Source of the DNA: Candidatus Uhrbacteria bacterium RIFCSPLOWO2_01_FULL_47_17
GTDB lineage: Bacteria; Patescibacteriota; Patescibacteriia; UBA9934; GWF2-40-263
Assembly: GCA_001791305.1 (NCBI GenBank)
Contig: MGEI01000005.1
Coordinates: 44,488-108,487, forward strand
Length of the DNA stretch: 64,000 bases
Direction: 5' to 3'
Each line of letters begins with the position of its first letter. Position 1 is the stretch's first letter. Shown here in pieces: positions 11,436 to 64,000 of the stretch. The position numbers and the translations under genes are program-made. Below the pieces are notes generated by a model. That model was not told the DNA's origin, did no database searches, and worked only from the letters and a program-made list of their open reading frames with translations.

Positions 11436-12564
11436 TTATTCTTTATTTTCCTTTGCGAATCTGTCTGACTTCCCAAGCTCTCTTCGAAGATACGCTTCCA
11501 TAAACGGCTCAAGTGCGCCTTCGAGGACTCCTTCTGCATCCGTCGTCTCGTAATCGGTTCGGTGATCCTTCACGAGTTTATACGGATGAAGCACGTAACT
11601 GCGAATTTGATTTCCCCATTCGGCGGATTGATAATCGCCACGTAATTCCAGCTTTTGTTTTTTTTGTTCTTCGAGTTTGAGTTGATACAATTTTGCGCGC
11701 AGAATCTTCATGGCGGTTTCTTTGTTTTGCAATTGCGAACGTTCGTTTTGACACGCAACCGCAATTTTGGTCGGAAGATGGACGATGCGCACCGCCGAAT
11801 ACGTTGTGTTCACGCTTTGCCCTCCTTTTCCTCCCGAGAGATACGTGTCGATACGCAAATCTTTTGGATCGATTTCGAGATCTTCGATCTCATCGAGTTC
11901 TGGAATCACCTCGACAAGCGCGAATGTTGTGTGACGCATCTTCTCTGCGTCGAAAGGAGAGATGCGGACGAGACGATGAACACCCGCTTCGGACTTGAGA
12001 TATCCGTACGCATATCGACCCGTCACGCGAACCATCACACTTTTGATACCGACATCCTCGGCTCGAGACTCGTCGAGAATCGTCATCTCGAATCCTTTTT
12101 GTTCCGCAAAACGCGCATACATACGAAGAAGCATTTGCGTCCAATCTTGTGCCTCTGTTCCTCCGCTTCCTGCGTGGATCGCAAGAATCGCGGTTGTGTC
12201 GTCATGCTCGCCCGAGAAGAGGGTAGTGAATTCCATTTTTGAGAAGCGCGCTTCGAGCGCTTCGAGCTTAGAAGCAATCTCATCATGCATCGAAGTGTCA
12301 TTATTCTCATCACCAAACTTTGCGAGTTCGAGAAGCTCATCGACCTCAGCAATGAACAATTCCCAAATTGAAAGTTCACTTCGAAGATCCGCGGCGTGTT
12401 TGCTCACAGTCTTTGCGTTTTGTGTGTCATTCCAAAAATCCGGAGCGGCCATTTGCGCTTCAAGCGCGGCCACCGTTGTTTTTACGGTATCAAGGTCAAA
12501 GTAACCCCCACGTTCGAAGAGCTCGATCGCGGAGGGCTTGGATTAATTTCAGCAACTCTTTCAT
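11436..12564 (-). CDS. prfB: Peptide chain release factor 2 (PrfB) with programmed +1 ribosomal frameshift
   Basis: SPF and GGQ motifs in the main ORF (11436..12473). The upstream frame starts at ATG 12564 and reads MKELLKLIQALRDRALRTWGLL up to the CTT TGA C shift site preceded by the SD-like GGGGG. The +1 frame then continues as DLDTVKTTVAALEAQMAAPDFW. Confidence 0.9.
12493..12501 (-). other. prfB +1 frameshift site (CTT TGA C preceded by the internal Shine-Dalgarno GGGGG)
   Basis: Read directly on the minus strand: tgggggttaCTTTGACc. Confidence 0.85.
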
Positions 12565-56426: not shown

Positions 56427-56494
56427 TCCATGCCTGGTTTTTTTATTGTCGTGAAACAAAAAATCCCGCGCGAGGCGAGATTCTTTGTGTTCCA

Positions 56495-56906
56495 AAGGAG
56501 TGATCTGTAAGCCGAATTTTGTCTAACCGATCTTACGATCGATGAGGCGATCATCTATCTTGATGTTACATTGCTGTAACACTCGTGCGAGCTACCAAAT
56601 TTGCTCTTTCACCGAAAAGGGTTTGCCACACATGCATGTCACCATGCAGCGAGATGCGTAGTCTTGCGACATCACATCACTTTTCACCTTTCACCCAGGC
56701 TTGCGCCGGAGCTAGTATAGTCTCTGTGGTACTTTCCCTAAGGTTTGTATTCGGGATCAAAGAGTGAATTGCTCCAACTCCTCGCGCTCGAATGCGTATC
56801 CTTGGTTGTCGTTAACAACTTTTCTTGTCCGCATGCATTGCTGCATACGAGGTGTTCGGACTTTCCTCCCGAGCCTTTGCCCAGGTAATCACCCGATCAT
56901 CCTTGA
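56495..56906 (-). ncRNA. rnpB: RNase P RNA (bacterial type A-like)
   Basis: Minus strand carries GGGAGGAAAGUCCG (CR-I), GGGUGAAAGGUG (P10/11-12 region) and AAUUCGGCUUACAG (CR-V, GGCUUA). P1 pairing is AAGGATGATC/GATCACTCCTT. A promoter lies upstream and a T-rich terminator downstream. Confidence 0.8.
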
Positions 56907-59950: not shown

Positions 59951-61133
59951 TTGCAGACATTTGAATACAACAGAACAAAGCGGCGTCGGAGAGTACACCA
60001 TTCAACTCCTCGGCGCGCTTTTTGAATTACAATCTTCGGCGGCGTCTGGGGACACCACCCATAACAGAGAACATGAATATGTCTTGCTCACGACGGGACG
60101 AGAGACACCGGAACTGCTTGCGATCTTTCGCGCGCGCACTTCCCCGTCGTTTGTGTTTCCATCGTTTGTAAAACATACGCACGTTCCCATCGCAAACAAA
60201 TTTTTGAATGTGAAATTGCTTTTGATGAAACAACCCACACTCAACTGGCTCGTTAAAGATGAAATTGATCTCGTGTTTCTTCCGAACATAAACATCACGG
60301 TCCTTCCAACAACCATTCCAACCGTGCTTACGGTTCATGATGTCTCGTGGAAATTTTTTCCGGAATTTTTCTCACACAAAATGCGTGCGTGGCATCATCT
60401 TCTCGACGCACACAAACTCATCGGCCGCGCGCATGCGATCATCACACCATCGACAACGACAAAGAACGATGTCGCGCGTGTCTTTCACAAATCCCCAGAC
60501 GAGATCACAACCATTCCGCACGGTGTCGCTTCGAACTTTCATCCAAAAATGGAAGCACACGACCACGGCGTTCGTTCGAAACTCAAACTTCCAAGACGCT
60601 ACGCTCTATTCGTAGGAACGATCGAACCGCGAAAAAATGTTTTGTCGATCATTGAAGGAATGAAACGTTATCGCGAAATGACACACGACGATCTTCACCT
60701 CGTCCTCGTCGGTAAGTGGGGTTGGAAATCGCACAGCATTCGCCGCAGACTTTGGAAGCGAGACACGCAAGGTTGGGTGCATAATCTCGAGTACATCAAT
60801 CCGCGCGATCTGCCGGCCGTTTACCGATCGGCCAGCGTTTTCCTCTGGCCATCATTCTATGAAGGCTTCGGATTACCGATCCTTGAAGCAATGGCGTGTG
60901 GAGTTCCTGTAATCACGAGTAACATCTCGAGTATGCCGGAAGTGACGGGCACAAGCGCACTCCACGTCGATCCATTTAACATCCAAGACATCGCCGACGC
61001 CTTAAAAGGCGTCATTCCGCTCCAACCCCTCCATGAACAGCTCAAAAAAGGCGGCCTCGAGCGCGCAGCGGAGTTCACTTGGGAAAAGGCGGCGGAACAG
61101 ACGCTTGAAGTATTTAAGAAATCCACCAATTAA
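59934..61133 (+). CDS. Glycosyltransferase family 4
   Basis: EGFGLPILEAMACGVPVITS motif. Its start overlaps the previous GT4 gene by 17 nt. Confidence 0.85.
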   Translation: MRILVDCRHLNTTEQSGVGEYTIQLLGALFELQSSAASGDTTHNREHEYVLLTTGRETPELLAIFRARTSPSFVFPSFVKHTHVPIANKFLNVKLLLMKQPTLNWLVKDEIDLVFLPNINITVLPTTIPTVLTVHDVSWKFFPEFFSHKMRAWHHLLDAHKLIGRAHAIITPSTTTKNDVARVFHKSPDEITTIPHGVASNFHPKMEAHDHGVRSKLKLPRRYALFVGTIEPRKNVLSIIEGMKRYREMTHDDLHLVLVGKWGWKSHSIRRRLWKRDTQGWVHNLEYINPRDLPAVYRSASVFLWPSFYEGFGLPILEAMACGVPVITSNISSMPEVTGTSALHVDPFNIQDIADALKGVIPLQPLHEQLKKGGLERAAEFTWEKAAEQTLEVFKKSTN

Positions 61134-61290
61134 TTGGTGGATTTCTTAACATTCTCGATCAATTCATGCTCATACATCTTCTTCAAAGCATGTAACACAA
61201 CAGCGACTCTATTTTCAAAACGACCAGATTCCACCATAGAGTCGATAAAGGCTTCAAGTTGTGGAGTGAGTGAAATGGAAAGTGTGGACA
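61130..61290 (-). pseudogene. ParD/RHH-type antitoxin-like gene, frame-disrupted (apparent 1-nt deletion), orphan
   Basis: The ATG frame reads MSTLSISLTPN, then stops. The +2 frame continues LEAFIDSMVESGRFENRVAVVLHALKKMYEHELIENVKKSTN to the stop. Together they match the ParD pattern (SL.P.L.AFID..V.SGR). The break is at the CCAAAC run near 61258. Confidence 0.45.
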
Positions 61291-61431: not shown

Positions 61432-61460
61432 TTGACAAAATCCCAAAAAAGTGGTATAGT
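61432..61460 (+). promoter_or_regulatory. Strong extended -10 sigma70-type promoter
   Basis: TTGACA, 17 nt, TGgTATAGT. Confidence 0.6.
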
Positions 61461-61466
61461 GAGGAG

Positions 61467-61690
61467 GTTAAAAGTCAAAAAGTCGCTGTGTCCTTCACAA
61501 CCTAATGGGGAGAGAGCTGTGCTATCCAGTCCCACTCGAAGATAGCAAGGAAAGTAGTTAGAAGTTCGTAGTTAGGTCGGAAAAGGTTCCGAAAACCCTA
61601 ACTTCAAACTACCAACTACCAACTTCTACTTTTCCAAAACCGATGTTTGAGTATTTCTCGTGAAGTATTTGAACATCGGTTTTTCTGTTA
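61467..61690 (+). ncRNA. Candidate structured leader/small RNA with intrinsic terminator (function unknown)
   Basis: A long imperfect hairpin, ggaaagtagttagaagttcgtagttagg...ccctaacttcaaactaccaactaccaacttctacttttcc, is followed by a terminator hairpin (ccgatgtt...aacatcgg) and TTTTT, ending 45 nt before the next ATG. Confidence 0.3.
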
Positions 61691-61738
61691 ACAGGTCGAA
61701 TAACAAAGCTGCACAAAGTGCGGTGAGGAAAAAATCAA

Positions 61739-62032
61739 ATGGGTTGGATCATTTTCATTGTGGTTGCATTCATGGTTTCCACTGTGATTGCGAATCTTGT
61801 CTCAGAGAATATCAAAAGCCAAGCGGCGGATCTGACGTGGAAGGGTATCCCGCGGAGGACGACGGAACATCAGGCGGTCATCGCATTCGTCTGGACGTCG
61901 ATCGTCGCCTTTTCGATCTTGATGGGCGTGGGCTACATGTTCACGCATATCGAGTCCGTTGGAGAGTCAACGACCTACCTTAGCTACGACGAGCAGGTCA
62001 ATGACGGACACGTCATCTACACCGGCAATTAA
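61739..62032 (+). CDS. Small hypothetical 2-TM membrane protein
   Basis: RBS GGTGAGGA 8 nt upstream; 97 aa. Confidence 0.55.
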   Translation: MGWIIFIVVAFMVSTVIANLVSENIKSQAADLTWKGIPRRTTEHQAVIAFVWTSIVAFSILMGVGYMFTHIESVGESTTYLSYDEQVNDGHVIYTGN

Positions 62033-62037
62033 TTTTT

Positions 62038-62150
62038 CCCTCTCACTTAGCTTGCGCAGCGAATGAGAGACTCGCTCTTTGACACATTCTCGACCTGCCC
62101 GCAGCTGCTTCACAGCTGCGGGACTCGACACCGCCCGTCATTTGCGAATG
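62038..62150 (+). repeat. Inter-ORF structured repeat, copy A (hairpin cccgcagctg-CTTCA-cagctgcggg at 62097-62121)
   Basis: Shares ccctctcacttagc, gaatgagagactcgctctttga.aca, the hairpin and gactcgac with copy C, and the core with copy B. Confidence 0.7.
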
Positions 62151-62218
62151 TCGCACATGGTGGTCGGTCTGAGGAAGCACACACGCTCGGCGAATTCGCG
62201 GAGCAAGAGGAAATTGAA

Positions 62219-62512
62219 ATGGTCACCAAGGAATGTGTCTTCAAGGCAATTGAAGCGATTGCCGATTTCGTGCATGAACATCATGGACATTTGATGGTCC
62301 AAGACGTTGCGCGGCTGACGCTTGCGTTGCGGGAACAGTCGCACTTCGAGTGCGTCATCGGCGTTCCGGGTCTCTACTCGATCGACGCCGGGACGACCAA
62401 GCAGATCGTGCGCGTGCGTATTTATCAGGGTGTGCACTCGAACGAACTGACCGACTCCCTGATCGCTCGCATCCTCGACGGCAACGCCTGGACGCACGAT
62501 GTGTCGCAGTAG
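62219..62512 (+). CDS. Hypothetical protein (GC-rich island)
   Basis: ATG preceded by GAGGAAAT. The track's longer 5' extension is a translation of repeat A. Confidence 0.45.
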   Translation: MVTKECVFKAIEAIADFVHEHHGHLMVQDVARLTLALREQSHFECVIGVPGLYSIDAGTTKQIVRVRIYQGVHSNELTDSLIARILDGNAWTHDVSQ

Positions 62513-62640
62513 TTCTCGACTTCGCGTCGGAACTTCGCTCTTTGAAACAATTTCGACTTGCCGCCAACAGCTTCACTGTTGGCGGACTCGACTTCGTTCA
62601 TCACCTCCGATCGCCGGATGTGTGGTGCGCGGAGCAGAGT
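62513..62640 (+). repeat. Inter-ORF structured repeat, copy B (hairpin ccgccaacag-CTTCA-ctgttggcgg at 62560-62584)
   Basis: Conserved tcgctctttgaaaca, hairpin geometry, and gactcgacttcgttcatcacctccgatcgccggatgtgtggtgcgcg. The stem sequence differs from A and C by compensatory changes. Confidence 0.7.
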
Positions 62641-62730
62641 CTGGTTCTGTGTTATAGGCGGGGTCCCCTGACCCCGCGAGGTTTGCACAACAACCGCCCG
62701 CCCAAGTTTGGGTCGGCAACAAGGAAAAGC

Positions 62731-63513
62731 ATGTTCCATTTCGGAAAGTCAAAGTCGAATCCCATTCACGACTCGAGGAAGCCTGTCCGCGAGGACGCCT
62801 TCGAAGTCCCCTGGACAGATCGTGAGGACGACATGGAAATCGACGACAACGTGAACTACGGCGTGCGGCAATCGCTGCGCAAGAACCGCAAGTTGAACGC
62901 CCAGATGAACATGAACACGAAAATCACGGAGCTGCAGTGGATGTTCCGGATGAGCTATGCGGAGGCCGTGAAGATGATCGCCGACGTACAGCGCGACAAG
63001 CCGAAGCGGACGCGCGAACAGCGCAGCGACCTGTACCTCGAGTCGAACCCCGACGGCGAGGACAAGATCGCAGCGCTCAAGAAGCGCTACGCCAGTCGGT
63101 GCCTCATCCGGTACTTCATCAACAAGGCGCACAACAGCTTCACCTGGAAGAACTCGAACCGCACGGCGAACAGGCAGTGGAACCGCCACGAGCCGACCGT
63201 TCACGTCCCGTGGACGATCGGCGAAGAGACGTGCGCGACGTACCTCGTGCAACAGCGCGAAGACGAGCAGGAACGGCACGAACACGCCATGTACATCGCT
63301 CGCGAAATGGAGCGTGAGAATGAGCTCGAACTCGCCGCTGCCCGTTGGGACGCGGCGCTCGAAGCGGAAATGGACGCATTCAAAGAACTCGAGCGTCGCT
63401 ACGACAAGGGCAAGTGGTGCCTCAAGCTCGACACCAAGCCCGATCTCGATCGGATCGACGTGTTGGAGCAGCACTTCGACAGCGGCGCCAAGGTCTACCG
63501 GCACGCGGCCTAG
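62731..63513 (+). CDS. Hypothetical protein (GC-rich island), charged/coiled-coil rich
   Basis: ATG preceded by AAGGAAAAG; 260 aa. The upstream part of the track ORF overlaps repeat B and the previous gene. Confidence 0.5.
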   Translation: MFHFGKSKSNPIHDSRKPVREDAFEVPWTDREDDMEIDDNVNYGVRQSLRKNRKLNAQMNMNTKITELQWMFRMSYAEAVKMIADVQRDKPKRTREQRSDLYLESNPDGEDKIAALKKRYASRCLIRYFINKAHNSFTWKNSNRTANRQWNRHEPTVHVPWTIGEETCATYLVQQREDEQERHEHAMYIAREMERENELELAAARWDAALEAEMDAFKELERRYDKGKWCLKLDTKPDLDRIDVLEQHFDSGAKVYRHAA

Positions 63514-63527
63514 TTCCTTCAACAACA

Positions 63528-63650
63528 TCCCTCTCACTTAGCCTCGCGCGAATGAGAGACTCGCTCTTTGAAACAAAGGTCTGCCCGCAGCTGCTTCACA
63601 GCTGCGGGACTCGACTTCGAACATCACTTCCGATAGACGGATGTGGTGCG
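63528..63650 (+). repeat. Inter-ORF structured repeat, copy C (hairpin cccgcagctg-CTTCA-cagctgcggg at 63584-63608)
   Basis: Near-identical to copy A in the 5' half and to copy B in the 3' half (gactcgacttcgaacatcacttccgatagacggatgtggtgcgcg). Confidence 0.7.
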
Positions 63651-63681
63651 CGATGAGGGTCAACAACGGAGGAAGAAAAAG

Positions 63682-63990
63682 ATGAATGCCAGGCAAGCTC
63701 TCGAAAAGATTCGGGCGATCGATCGAGATCACAACCGAGCTTACTGGAACGATGTGGATCGACTCCTCAAGGAGTTCGAACCGGTGTTCGAGGACGATCC
63801 TGAAGGGTTCGAAATCAACATCGGTCGGGCCGCTTCGTTTCGCGTCTCACTGCGCAAAGGCGGATACCGCGTGCTTCGCTGGTCGCATTGGGCACACGTG
63901 TACGATCCGACGCCGATGGCCAACGAGGCAAATGCGACCGAAGTTTTCGACCGCATTCTCGAAGCCGTCACCGCGCCGGCTGCTGCGTAG
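63682..63990 (+). CDS. Hypothetical protein (GC-rich island)
   Basis: ATG preceded by GGAGGAAGAAAAAG; 102 aa. Confidence 0.45.
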   Translation: MNARQALEKIRAIDRDHNRAYWNDVDRLLKEFEPVFEDDPEGFEINIGRAASFRVSLRKGGYRVLRWSHWAHVYDPTPMANEANATEVFDRILEAVTAPAAA

Positions 63991-64000
63991 TTCAATCAAC

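What the first reader, a model, noticed from the sequence alone, without database searches (positions are those of the whole stretch)
62097..63608. Conserved hairpin with CTTCA loop and compensatory stem changes across repeat copies (candidate novel RNA motif or operator)
Copies A and C have the stem cccgcagctg/cagctgcggg, while copy B has ccgccaacag/ctgttggcgg. The primary sequence is entirely different, yet all three keep a 10-bp stem, a 5-nt CTTCA loop and the flanking tcgctctttga.aca and gactcgac. Covariation that preserves pairing argues for a functional RNA structure, for example an RNase processing or stability element or a translation control element in each cistron's 5' UTR. The alternative is a family of dimeric-regulator operators with altered specificity.
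Basis: seen in the sequence. Interest (0 to 1): 0.7.

Follow-up and report, generated by a model that had tools for sequence, protein, structure and literature searches.

The report
Repeated structured RNA between Uhrbacteria genes
The hairpin repeated between small genes of an uncultured groundwater bacterium is a real, evolutionarily maintained RNA structure; it belongs to a larger, unnamed 140-base element whose core resembles the signals that phage lambda and ribosomal RNA operons use to stop RNA polymerase terminating early.

Summary
Three 10-bp hairpins with a CTTCA loop lie at 62098-62122, 62561-62585 and 63584-63608. Copy B differs from A and C at 4 of 10 stem positions, all compensated, so the sequence is not "entirely different".

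The window ends inside a 5.8-kb, GC-rich island of small ORFan genes in a Candidatus Uhrbacteria (CPR) genome. The island holds seven such elements, and related islands in at least five other Uhrbacteria assemblies hold more.

Across 19 distinct copies the hairpin (H2) keeps pairing with at least 12 different stems, and 9 of its 10 pairs show double changes. H2 is the middle of a ~140-nt module: H1 hairpin, single-stranded YGCUCUUUGAMA, H2, then a long irregular H3.

G·U outnumbers A·C by 51 to 7, and every copy is co-oriented with the genes, so the structure works as plus-strand RNA. There is no Rfam match.

The single-stranded core matches boxA of rrn operons and lambda nut in 10 of 11 positions, with a hairpin 9-13 nt downstream. 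Each island has a single sigma-70-like promoter, and terminator-like hairpins lie downstream of these modules. My best reading (about 0.4) is a nut/rrn-like antitermination module, with H2 as the boxB-like part. RNA processing or stability punctuation is the main rival. The operator model is contradicted.

The parts
61432..61460 (+). Context: the only sigma-70-like promoter on the gene strand upstream of the island (TTGACA-17-TATAGT, 11 of 12)
   Evidence: L001 8702-8730; window = L001 + 52730. The same arrangement occurs in L020.
61461..61690 (+). Context: conserved leader RNA ending in a strong intrinsic terminator (stem 61638-61682 plus T-run), directly before the first island gene
   Evidence: The core GGGGAGAGAGCTGTGCTATCCAG and the terminator 5' arm are conserved in three species. 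No Rfam hit.
61739..62032 (+). Island gene 1 (97 aa, predicted membrane ORFan)
62033..62175 (+). Element copy A (whole module H1-boxA-like-H2-H3)
   Evidence: covariance-model hit, 125 bits
62040..62069 (+). Copy A, hairpin H1 (CTCTCAcTT...AAtGAGAG), starting 8 nt after the stop codon
62074..62084 (+). Copy A, boxA-like single-stranded core GCTCTTTGACA
   Evidence: consensus from PMC5725501 and PMC2724277
62098..62122 (+). Copy A, hairpin H2 (the reported hairpin): 10 bp, loop CTTCA
62124..62173 (+). Copy A, long irregular hairpin H3 (CUC...GAG base; variant ACCGCC...GGUGGU)
62219..62512 (+). Island gene 2 (97 aa ORFan; a paralogue lies further along the island)
62502..62641 (+). Element copy B (whole module)
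   Evidence: covariance-model hit, 112 bits
62512..62533 (+). Copy B, hairpin H1 with a different sequence (GTTCtCGAC...GTCGGAAC), overlapping the stop codon
62537..62547 (+). Copy B, boxA-like core GCTCTTTGAAA. With its spacer it reads GCUCUUU[GA]AACAAUUU, close to E. coli rrn ugcucuuuaacaauuua.
62561..62585 (+). Copy B, hairpin H2: 10 bp, loop CTTCA, with 4 compensated differences from A and C
62587..62639 (+). Copy B, hairpin H3 (CUC..UCG..CAUCAC-inner stem-GUGGUG..CGG..GAG)
62731..63513 (+). Island gene 3 (260 aa ORFan, one of two protein families shared by most islands)
63524..63661 (+). Element copy C (whole module)
   Evidence: covariance-model hit, 145.5 bits
63531..63558 (+). Copy C, hairpin H1
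63563..63573 (+). Copy C, boxA-like core GCTCTTTGAAA
63584..63608 (+). Copy C, hairpin H2: 10 bp, loop CTTCA
63610..63657 (+). Copy C, hairpin H3
63682..63990 (+). Island gene 4 (102 aa ORFan). The island continues beyond the window end.

Best explanation
**What is shown.**
- The hairpin (H2) is the middle helix of a ~140-nt cis-acting RNA module.
- The module occupies the spacers between cistrons in the promoter-proximal part of an array of small ORFan genes. All genes face one way and have no promoters of their own.
- The array sits between glycosyltransferase genes in Candidatus Uhrbacteria.
- Module order: stop codon, hairpin H1, single-stranded YGCUCUUUGAMA, 9-13 nt spacer, hairpin H2 (usually 10 bp with loop CUUCA), one nucleotide, then a long irregular hairpin H3. 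The base of H3 pairs the CUC of the invariant GACUCGAC with the GAG of GAUGAG.

**What is inferred (mechanism).**
- The array is transcribed as one long RNA from the single upstream sigma-70 promoter.
- The single-stranded core is a boxA, the loading site for NusB-S10.
- Together with the flanking hairpins it forms a nut/rrn-type antitermination site.
- H2 plays the boxB-like part. It is a structure whose loop and closing pairs are read by a protein, while its stem is free to drift as long as it pairs.
- Polymerase modified at these sites can cross the 150-220-nt untranslated spacers and the terminator-like hairpins further down the island.

**Confidence, in two parts.** That H2 is a selected plus-strand RNA structure: about 0.9. 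That the module works by boxA-type antitermination: about 0.4. The figure given below is for the mechanism.
For: **Structure.**
- 19 distinct copies from the window's island (L001), L020, L023, L024, L026, L029 and L034 were aligned.
- RNAalifold predicts H2 and H3 without guidance.
- Pair counts: 96.7% of cells paired. 15 of 24 pairs have double changes, across 42 cells. 0 of 500 shuffles reach these values. Slid controls give 30-51%.
- In H2, 9 of 10 pairs have double changes, and at least 12 different stems occur.
- At one orthologous spacer the H2 hairpin has been replaced by a different one. There the spacer before H2 is 88.6% identical and the 20 nt after it are 100% identical, against 72% for the adjacent coding sequence.

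**Strand.**
- G·U cells outnumber A·C cells 51 to 7 over all helices.
- A U·G pair in H3 is kept in 17 of 19 copies.
- Every copy is co-oriented with the ORFs, and none lies on the other strand.

**boxA.**
- GCTCTTTGA(A/C)A matches the gammaproteobacterial consensus GYTCTTTAANA in 10 of 11 positions (PMC5725501).
- It contains the rrn/lambda core (U/C)GCUCUU(U)A (PMC2724277).
- The G at position 8 also occurs in the conserved mycoplasma 16S-23S spacer sequence GTTCTTTGAAAAC (PMC4312986). That this spacer sequence is a boxA is my own knowledge.
- Copies A and B also resemble the nutR and rrn boxA spacers.
- The core is unpaired in the consensus fold.
- In the window it occurs only in the three elements.

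**Context.**
- One sigma-70-like promoter precedes each island and none lies inside it: 5.8 kb in L001 and 10.5 kb in L020.
- Terminator-like hairpins followed by UCUUUCUU lie downstream of the boxA-type modules in 4 of 5 islands where both types were found.

**Not a known family.** No Rfam match.
Against: - The CUUCA loop is not the GNRA-like pentaloop of lambdoid boxB.
- Several copies carry other loops or much longer stems at the H2 position. A specific loop reader therefore cannot be essential at every copy.
- One site per spacer (7 in 5 kb) has no precedent among nut or rrn systems.
- The strong intrinsic terminator in the leader lies upstream of the first module, so the modules cannot explain how transcription enters the island.
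- GCUCUUU also follows the class II hairpins. There it looks like part of a stem plus a U-rich tail, so the boxA resemblance could be partly coincidental.
- I could not read the host's own rrn boxA.
- I could not check that Uhrbacteria encode NusB or Rho. Pfam scans of ten window proteins found no Nus factor.
- There are no expression data.
- Some apparent covariation may reflect gene conversion between copies: stems are identical within L023 and within L001.
Confidence: 0.4

Rival explanations
1. RNA processing and stability punctuation. The long transcript is cut in the only A/U-rich single-stranded stretch (CUCUUUGAAACA). H1 then protects the 3' end of the upstream message, and H2/H3 protect the 5' end of the downstream one. 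This would give each cistron its own half-life, as phage T7 early mRNAs are cut at RNase III sites between genes.
For: - The module sits exactly between cistrons, and H1 starts 0-8 nt after the stop codon.
- The single-stranded linker is flanked by very stable hairpins, with z-scores of -3.4 to -4.3.
- At the H2 position almost any stable hairpin is tolerated: stems of 9 to about 17 bp with different loops. This fits a steric protector.
- An RNase J-type protein (Lactamase_B/RNase_J_C domains) is encoded a few kb upstream in the same genome.
Against: - A steric protector does not need loops and flanks that stay invariant between species (100% over the 20 nt after H2).
- H2 (10 bp) is too short for RNase III. 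H3 is only a borderline substrate.
- The model does not predict the order seen, with boxA-type modules upstream and terminator-like hairpins downstream.
- It does not account for the 10 of 11 boxA match.
Confidence: 0.25
2. A selfish or neutral modular repeat. The modules would spread and homogenise by recombination between spacers, like pneumococcal BOX elements or T4 promoter-stem-loop cassettes. Arm complementarity would be kept by intrastrand template switching in DNA, not by selection on RNA.
For: - Stems are identical within a genome (three in L023, three in L001), which suggests gene conversion.
- Spacers are mosaics of a limited set of modules.
- A 424-nt segment including one module is duplicated within the island.
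- One assembly shows the hairpin collapsed (L009).
Against: - All copies have one orientation, and they occur only inside the islands: none in the other 62 kb of the window.
- The strong G·U over A·C bias and a conserved U·G pair are not expected from a DNA-level mechanism.
- The spacer sequence is more conserved between species than the neighbouring coding sequence.
Confidence: 0.1
3. A translation-control or insulator element of each 5' UTR. It would fold independently so that each cistron's ribosome-binding site is presented in the same way, or it would bind a repressor of translation.
For: - The modules lie in 5' UTRs.
- Further recurrent hairpins lie next to the Shine-Dalgarno sequences (for example GCTCGGCG..CGCGGAGC and CCGCCCGCCC..GGGTCGG).
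Against: - H2 ends 60-150 nt upstream of the start codons.
- The same module precedes unrelated genes.
- In L045 a complete module is followed by a terminator and no gene.
Confidence: 0.08
4. A DNA-level site: an operator of a dimeric regulator, a promoter for an unknown sigma factor or polymerase, or a recombination site of attC type that moves gene cassettes.
For: - The stems are inverted repeats.
- TTGACA or TTGAAA inside the boxA-like core resembles a -35 hexamer.
- The array of small co-oriented ORFs separated by repeats looks superficially like an integron cassette array.
Against: - Operator: the symmetric arms vary while the asymmetric centre and flanks are fixed.
- Promoter: there is no -10-like hexamer 16-18 nt after TTGAMA, and the distance from that hexamer to the loop and to GACTCGAC varies with spacer and stem length.
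- attC: no RYYYAAC/GTTRRRY cores; three local hairpins rather than one long imperfect one; no integrase in the island or its flanks; island content is identical in all Rifle samples.
- The G·U bias argues against any double-strand reading.
Confidence: 0.07

Closest known systems
Phage lambda nut sites (boxA - spacer - boxB hairpin - boxC) with N protein and Nus factors
   Same: - Same order: a single-stranded CGCUCUU(U)-type core, a short spacer, then a small hairpin with a five-base loop. Lambda nutR is cgcucuuacacauucca + agcccugaaaaagggc (PMC2724277).
- Copy A reads CGCUCUU[UG]ACACAUUC.
- The hairpin's stem drifts while its loop is kept.
- A GU-rich stretch (UGUGUGGUG) follows in H3, loosely like boxC (my own recollection of boxC).
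- The sites are on the transcribed strand, upstream of terminator-like hairpins.
   Different: - The loop is CUUCA, not GNRA-like, and the stem is 10 bp, not 5.
- The site is repeated in nearly every spacer (7 per 5 kb), against two per phage genome.
- No recognisable N homologue. The only candidate is a conserved 66-aa Arg/Trp-rich island protein of unknown fold.
- The elements sit in a chromosomal island of a CPR bacterium, not a phage.
rrn antitermination leader and spacer (boxB-boxA-boxC) and other cellular boxA sites (suhB 5' UTR, CRISPR-array leaders)
   Same: - The core matches GYTCTTTAANA in 10 of 11 positions (PMC5725501).
- A hairpin precedes it (H1), as boxB precedes boxA in rrn.
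- boxA is repeated within one operon (leader and 16S-23S spacer).
- It would protect long untranslated RNA, as proposed for CRISPR arrays (PMC7665894).
   Different: - Here the transcript is protein-coding with untranslated gaps.
- H2 and H3 have no rrn counterpart.
- The host's own rrn boxA has not been seen.
Phage T7 early-region RNase III processing sites
   Same: Conserved irregular hairpins sit between the cistrons of one long transcript, with covarying stems and conserved internal loops. H3 is of comparable size.
   Different: H2 is too short for RNase III. A boxA-like single strand is not part of T7 sites. There is no evidence of cleavage.
T4-type promoter-early stem-loop cassettes (PeSLs) and pneumococcal BOX elements (both from my own knowledge)
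   Same: Modular, recombining intergenic cassettes flank small ORFan genes in a hyperplastic region, and copies are homogenised within a genome.
   Different: There is no promoter in the module. The elements are confined to one locus type. The strand-specific G·U pattern indicates RNA-level selection.
Integron attC sites
   Same: Structure is conserved while sequence varies, in hairpins between co-oriented, promoter-less small ORFs.
   Different: No R''/R' core sites, no integrase, three separate local hairpins, and no cassette variation among samples.

Membership tests
boxA / Nus-factor antitermination sites (rrn, lambda nut) | Sequence match to the boxA consensus (GYTCTTTAANA; rrn UGCUCUUUA; lambda CGCUCUUA) | tested here: met
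   GCTCTTTGA(A/C)A matches 10 of 11 positions in 16 of 19 aligned copies. Consensus sequences are from PMC5725501 and PMC2724277. The single mismatch (G at position 8) also occurs in the mycoplasma spacer sequence GTTCTTTGAAAAC (PMC4312986).
boxA / Nus-factor antitermination sites (rrn, lambda nut) | Lies unpaired on the transcribed strand of an untranslated stretch | tested here: met
   Unpaired in the RNAalifold consensus. All copies are on the gene strand and between stop and start codons. Transcription itself is inferred.
boxA / Nus-factor antitermination sites (rrn, lambda nut) | The same motif is present in the host's own rrn leader or spacer | not tested
   No rRNA operon is in the window or in any fetched locus.
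boxA / Nus-factor antitermination sites (rrn, lambda nut) | Binds NusB-NusE and makes polymerase resistant to termination | not testable with these tools
   Needs binding assays and reporter or Term-seq experiments.
Lambdoid boxB | Short hairpin 8-9 nt after boxA with a GNRA-like pentaloop bound by an arginine-rich N protein | tested here: not met
   A hairpin is present 9-13 nt after the core, but its loop is CUUCA and its stem is 10 bp. No N homologue was found. The candidate 66-aa basic protein has no detectable relatives of known function.
Any Rfam family | Covariance-model match | tested here: not met
   No hit in the island at gathering thresholds. At E<=10 there are only chance microRNA-model hits on an unrelated AT-rich hairpin.
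Intrinsic terminator | G+C-rich stem immediately followed by a U-tract | tested here: not met
   H2 is followed by ACUCGAC in all copies. The terminator scan does not flag it.
Integron attC | R''/L''-L'/R' imperfect palindrome with RYYYAAC/GTTRRRY cores, and an integron integrase nearby | tested here: not met
   No such cores in the sequence. The fold is three local hairpins. No integrase is called in 10-kb flanks.
Operator of a dimeric DNA-binding regulator | Conserved symmetric half-sites with a tolerant centre | tested here: not met
   The reverse pattern holds: the arms vary at 9 of 10 positions, and the asymmetric centre CTTCA is invariant in the 10-bp class.
RNase III processing site | About 20 bp or more of near-continuous double-stranded RNA | tested here: inconclusive
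   H2 has 10 bp, which is too short. H3 has about 16-20 pairs interrupted by internal loops. Cleavage cannot be tested here.

The most novel reading that the evidence does not exclude
The modules and the conserved 66-aa Arg/Trp-rich island protein together form a chromosomal, lambda-N-like processive antitermination system in a CPR bacterium. A leader attenuator gates entry. Nut-like sites (boxA plus a protein-read CUUCA hairpin) in successive spacers then keep polymerase termination-resistant across a hypervariable array of small ORFan genes. This would be a new class of cis-regulatory RNA and the first such system described in the candidate phyla radiation.
Probability: 0.15. Interest if true: 0.75.

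Novelty: new variant of a known kind. Interest (0 to 1): 0.55.

Why it matters
Almost nothing is known about gene regulation in the candidate phyla radiation, because none of these Uhrbacteria is cultured. This is a compact RNA element that can be tested directly. It has unusually clear covariation, is absent from Rfam, and is tied to a recurrent GC-rich island of small unknown proteins embedded in a cell-envelope glycosyltransferase locus.

If the boxA reading holds, Nus-factor antitermination would be used in CPR bacteria to express a protein-coding array. The use of one site per intercistronic spacer would also extend the known designs of nut and rrn sites. If the processing reading holds, the module is a natural mRNA 'punctuation' device. 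Either way, the module, the leader attenuator and the conserved 66-aa basic protein define a small system that could be rebuilt in a model host.

Tried and rejected
- **Public scans for more copies.** A viral-contig scan for boxA...GGACTCGAC gave two chance hits in coding sequence. The genome and metagenome scans with GACTCGACTTCGNACATCAC returned the family only from Uhrbacteria-type contigs. The remaining hits were chance matches in high-GC or low-GC DNA (L025, L027, L031-L033, L035, L037, L038, L040-L044).
- **Strain variation.** Apparent differences in gene content among the Rifle contigs are gene-calling artefacts. The DNA is 99.6-100% identical. A cassette-shuffling reading based on them was dropped.
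- **Protein function.** Pfam, PHROGs, NCBIfam and PDB sequence searches of the island proteins found nothing above threshold.
- **Structure prediction.** AlphaFold models of the two core proteins were too poor to search with (pLDDT 57 and 62, pTM 0.23-0.24). No fold search was run.
- **Hammerhead ribozyme.** CGAUGAG and GAAAC recall the hammerhead core, but the order and spacing do not fit, and Rfam ribozyme models do not match.
- **uORF starting at the ATG of GATGAG.** Rejected because several copies have GAAGCAGAG or CTGAG there instead.
- **K-turn or C/D-box reading of GAUGAG.** The bulge geometry does not fit.
- **tRNA-like punctuation.** ARAGORN finds nothing.
- **Folding energy as a strand test.** Both strands fold equally well, so it does not discriminate.
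- **Nus factors in the window.** None was found among the ten window proteins scanned.
- **Literature.** Arnvig et al. 2008 on boxA across phyla is not held. Searches for Uhrbacteria or Parcubacteria RNA motifs found nothing relevant.
Full report
**1. The observation.**

- Copy A: 62098-62122, CCCGCAGCTG-CTTCA-CAGCTGCGGG.
- Copy B: 62561-62585, CCGCCAACAG-CTTCA-CTGTTGGCGG.
- Copy C: 63584-63608, identical to A.

The flanks TCGCTCTTTGA(A/C)ACA and GACTCGAC are present in all three. A/C and B differ at 4 of 10 stem positions, and all four differences are compensated. "Entirely different" therefore overstates the difference. The pattern GCTTCAC-N7-GGACTCGAC occurs three times, against 0.49 expected.

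**2. Where the window sits.**

G+C rises from about 0.46 to 0.58 at about 61.8 kb. Exact-protein look-ups place the region in Candidatus Uhrbacteria bacterium RIFCSPHIGHO2_02_FULL_47_44 and many Rifle groundwater assemblies.

The window stops inside a 5.8-kb island (L001 9009-14860). The island holds about 13 small ORFs, all on one strand, between GT4 glycosyltransferase genes. All Rifle copies are 99.6-100% identical, so the differing gene calls are artefacts. None of the island proteins matches a family above threshold.

**3. More copies.**

The full island has seven elements, one in front of most genes. Relatives came from three sources:
- Homologues of the 260-aa island protein (L020-L022).
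- One DNA-pattern scan each of the genome and metagenome collections (L023, L024, L026, L028, L029, L034, L045).
- Homologues of a 66-aa island protein (L047).

All real hits are Uhrbacteria-type contigs. Several show the same position between glycosyltransferase genes. A viral-contig scan gave only chance hits. Rfam has no match at gathering thresholds or at E<=10.

**4. Anatomy.**

Nineteen distinct copies were aligned. On this alignment RNAalifold predicts H2 and a second, longer hairpin, H3. In H3:
- The CUC of the invariant GACUCGAC pairs with the GAG of the conserved GAUGAG.
- UCG pairs with CGA.
- CAUCAC pairs with GUGGUG, with a conserved U·G.
- A variable inner stem closes the hairpin.

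Upstream, a third hairpin (H1) starts 0-8 nt after the stop codon. It exists in at least five sequence versions. One pair of versions shows compensated change: CGAC/GTCG versus CAAC/GTTG.

Between H1 and H2 lies the unpaired YGCUCUUUGAMA.

**5. Covariation.**

Counting the H2 and H3 pairs on the MAFFT alignment:

| Measure | Value |
|---|---|
| Cells forming standard pairs | 96.7% |
| Same, with 3' partners slid by 1-3 columns | 30-51% |
| Pairs with double changes | 15 of 24 |
| Cells with double changes | 42 |
| Shuffles reaching the observed values | 0 of 500 |
| H2 pairs with double changes | 9 of 10 |

At least 12 different stems occur in the 10-bp class. At the same position other copies have longer hairpins with other loops: TCCG, GTACTC, or 14-17-bp stems.

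At one orthologous spacer, L001 versus L020:

| Segment | Identity |
|---|---|
| Adjacent coding sequence (last 390 nt) | 72% |
| Spacer from stop codon to H2 | 88.6% |
| 20 nt after H2 | 100% |
| H2 itself | 60%: replaced by a different hairpin |

A caveat: stems are often identical within a genome. Gene conversion therefore inflates cell counts, and the number of independent events is smaller than the number of cells.

**6. RNA or DNA, and which strand.**

Both strands fold equally well, so folding energy does not decide. In the model-based alignment, G·U cells outnumber A·C cells 51 to 7. The U·G pair in H3 is kept in 17 of 19 copies. On the other strand these pairs would be mismatches. Every copy is co-oriented with the ORFs.

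A covariance model built from the alignment finds only the three copies in the 64-kb window, even with filters off.

The operator reading fails because the symmetric arms vary while the asymmetric centre and flanks are fixed.

**7. Transcription context.**

Upstream of the island there is one sigma-70-like promoter (window 61432-61460, 11 of 12). It is followed by a conserved leader and a strong intrinsic terminator (61638-61682). There is no further promoter-like site on the gene strand in the 5.8-kb island. The 10.5-kb island of L020 shows the same arrangement.

I infer one long transcript with untranslated gaps of 150-220 nt.

A second kind of intergenic element occupies the distal part of the islands. 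It is a hairpin GCUCGAC..GUCGAGC followed by UCUUUCUUCCCUUC, which looks like a terminator. It lies downstream of the boxA-type modules in L001, L020, L024 and L026. L023 is an exception.

**8. Mechanism.**

The unpaired core matches the boxA consensus GYTCTTTAANA in 10 of 11 positions (PMC5725501). It contains the rrn and lambda cores UGCUCUUUA and CGCUCUUA (PMC2724277). The one mismatch, G at position 8, is also found in the conserved mycoplasma 16S-23S spacer sequence GTTCTTTGAAAAC (PMC4312986). That this spacer sequence is a boxA is my own knowledge.

Copy B reads GCUCUUU[GA]AACAAUUU, against rrn gcucuuuaacaauuu. Copy A reads CGCUCUU[UG]ACACAUUC, against nutR cgcucuuacacauuc. A hairpin with a five-base loop follows 9-13 nt later, as boxB follows boxA in nut.

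Three context features fit this reading: the single promoter, the long untranslated gaps and the downstream terminator-like hairpins. My best reading is therefore a nut/rrn-like antitermination module with H2 as the boxB-like part.

I hold this at about 0.4, for these reasons:
- The loop is not GNRA-like.
- Some copies have other hairpins at the H2 position.
- One site per spacer is unprecedented.
- The leader terminator precedes the first site.
- GCUCUUU also follows the class II hairpins.
- I could not see the host's own rrn boxA or its Nus factors.

**9. Rivals.**

- RNA processing or stability punctuation, as at T7 RNase III sites, is the main rival (0.25). It explains why different hairpins are tolerated at the H2 position. 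It does not explain the invariant loops and flanks or the boxA match.
- A selfish or neutral repeat (0.1), translation control (0.08) and DNA-level sites (0.07) each conflict with several observations. Details are in the Rival explanations section.

**10. Other features of the island.**

- Only two protein families recur across islands: the 260-348-aa ORFan and a 66-aa Arg/Trp-rich protein.
- The gene for the 66-aa protein is preceded by a strong Shine-Dalgarno sequence and a one-codon mini-ORF.
- The 66-aa protein is a candidate trans-acting partner, but its predicted structure is unreliable. One distant homologue lies in a mobile-element-like contig that lacks the RNA element.
- The leader RNA looks like an attenuator of its own.

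**11. Verdict.**

This is a real, covarying, plus-strand RNA element family that is absent from Rfam and so far restricted to Uhrbacteria islands. The reported hairpin is one helix of the element. It is most likely a new variant of boxA/nut-type antitermination signals. The function is not proven.

Noticed in passing
window 61432-61690 (also L020 1229-1500 and L028, minus strand, about 1040-1380): A strong sigma-70 promoter drives a conserved 130-230-nt leader (core GGGGAGAGAGCUGUGCUAUCCAG.CCC-[variable hairpin]-GAUAGCAA). The leader ends in an intrinsic terminator whose 5' arm is conserved in sequence in three species. Without the 3' arm, the GAGAGAGCU core pairs with the terminator's 5' arm. 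No Rfam hit. This is a candidate riboswitch or attenuator gating the whole island.
   Followed up: partly
window 61700-64000; L001 9009-14860: The island has 55-60% G+C in a 46% genome. It recurs at the same place between GT4 glycosyltransferase genes in several Uhrbacteria species with largely different small ORFs. No integrase or other mobility gene is present.
   Followed up: partly
L001 14343; L020 6394, 7358, 8278, 8763, 9453, 10377; L024 and L026 (several): A second family of intergenic modules occupies the distal part of the islands: hairpin GCTCGAC..GTCGAGC, then TCTTTCTTCCCTTC, then another hairpin. It looks like a terminator and usually lies downstream of the boxA-type modules.
   Followed up: partly
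L001 14093-14293 (beyond the window end); alignments A5 and A8: A 66-aa Arg/Trp-rich protein (..TTQEIRA..RRxxIPxAYDDIxR..RSWKNFRRTKWRA) is conserved in nearly all islands (16 sequence clusters). It has no known relatives. Its gene is preceded by a strong Shine-Dalgarno sequence, a mini-ORF ATG-NNN-stop and a hairpin.
   Followed up: partly
window 63514-63529; also L001 12101-12120 and L020 3300-3315: A C-rich, G-poor motif, TTCCTTCAACAAC, follows directly after TAG stop codons of unrelated genes. It contains CUUCA, the same pentamer as the H2 loop.
   Followed up: no
window 62219-62512 versus L001 12306-12577: Gene 2 has a paralogue within the island. The two are 83% identical over 424 nt, including the downstream H1 and boxA-like core. 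The paralogue is truncated by an earlier stop codon.
   Followed up: partly
L009 about 11830-11860: One assembly has hairpin C collapsed to CCCGCAGCTGGGACTCGAC, with the loop and one arm lost. This is either a palindrome deletion or an assembly artefact.
   Followed up: no
window 61114-61149: A perfect 36-nt palindrome (TTAAGAAATCCACCAATT / AATTGGTGGATTTCTTAA) lies between the convergent glycosyltransferase gene and a 53-aa minus-strand ORF.
   Followed up: no
L001 14872-15014; window about 61556-61630: Long AT-rich hairpins made of AGTTATGGAGTTATGAAGTT-like repeats lie at the right flank of the island and inside the leader. They give only weak, chance-level microRNA-model hits.
   Followed up: no
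L046 (GCA_009712145.1, VFSW01001163): The most distant homologue of the 66-aa protein sits in a mobile-element or phage-like contig (ParB-methyltransferase, large serine recombinase, Csx3, HEPN). That contig lacks the RNA element.
   Followed up: partly
window 56491-56904 (-) and 22419, 24252, 38062, 38762, 50280: RNase P RNA (class A, 154 bits) and five tRNA genes. These are ordinary chromosomal features and confirm a bacterial host chromosome.
   Followed up: no
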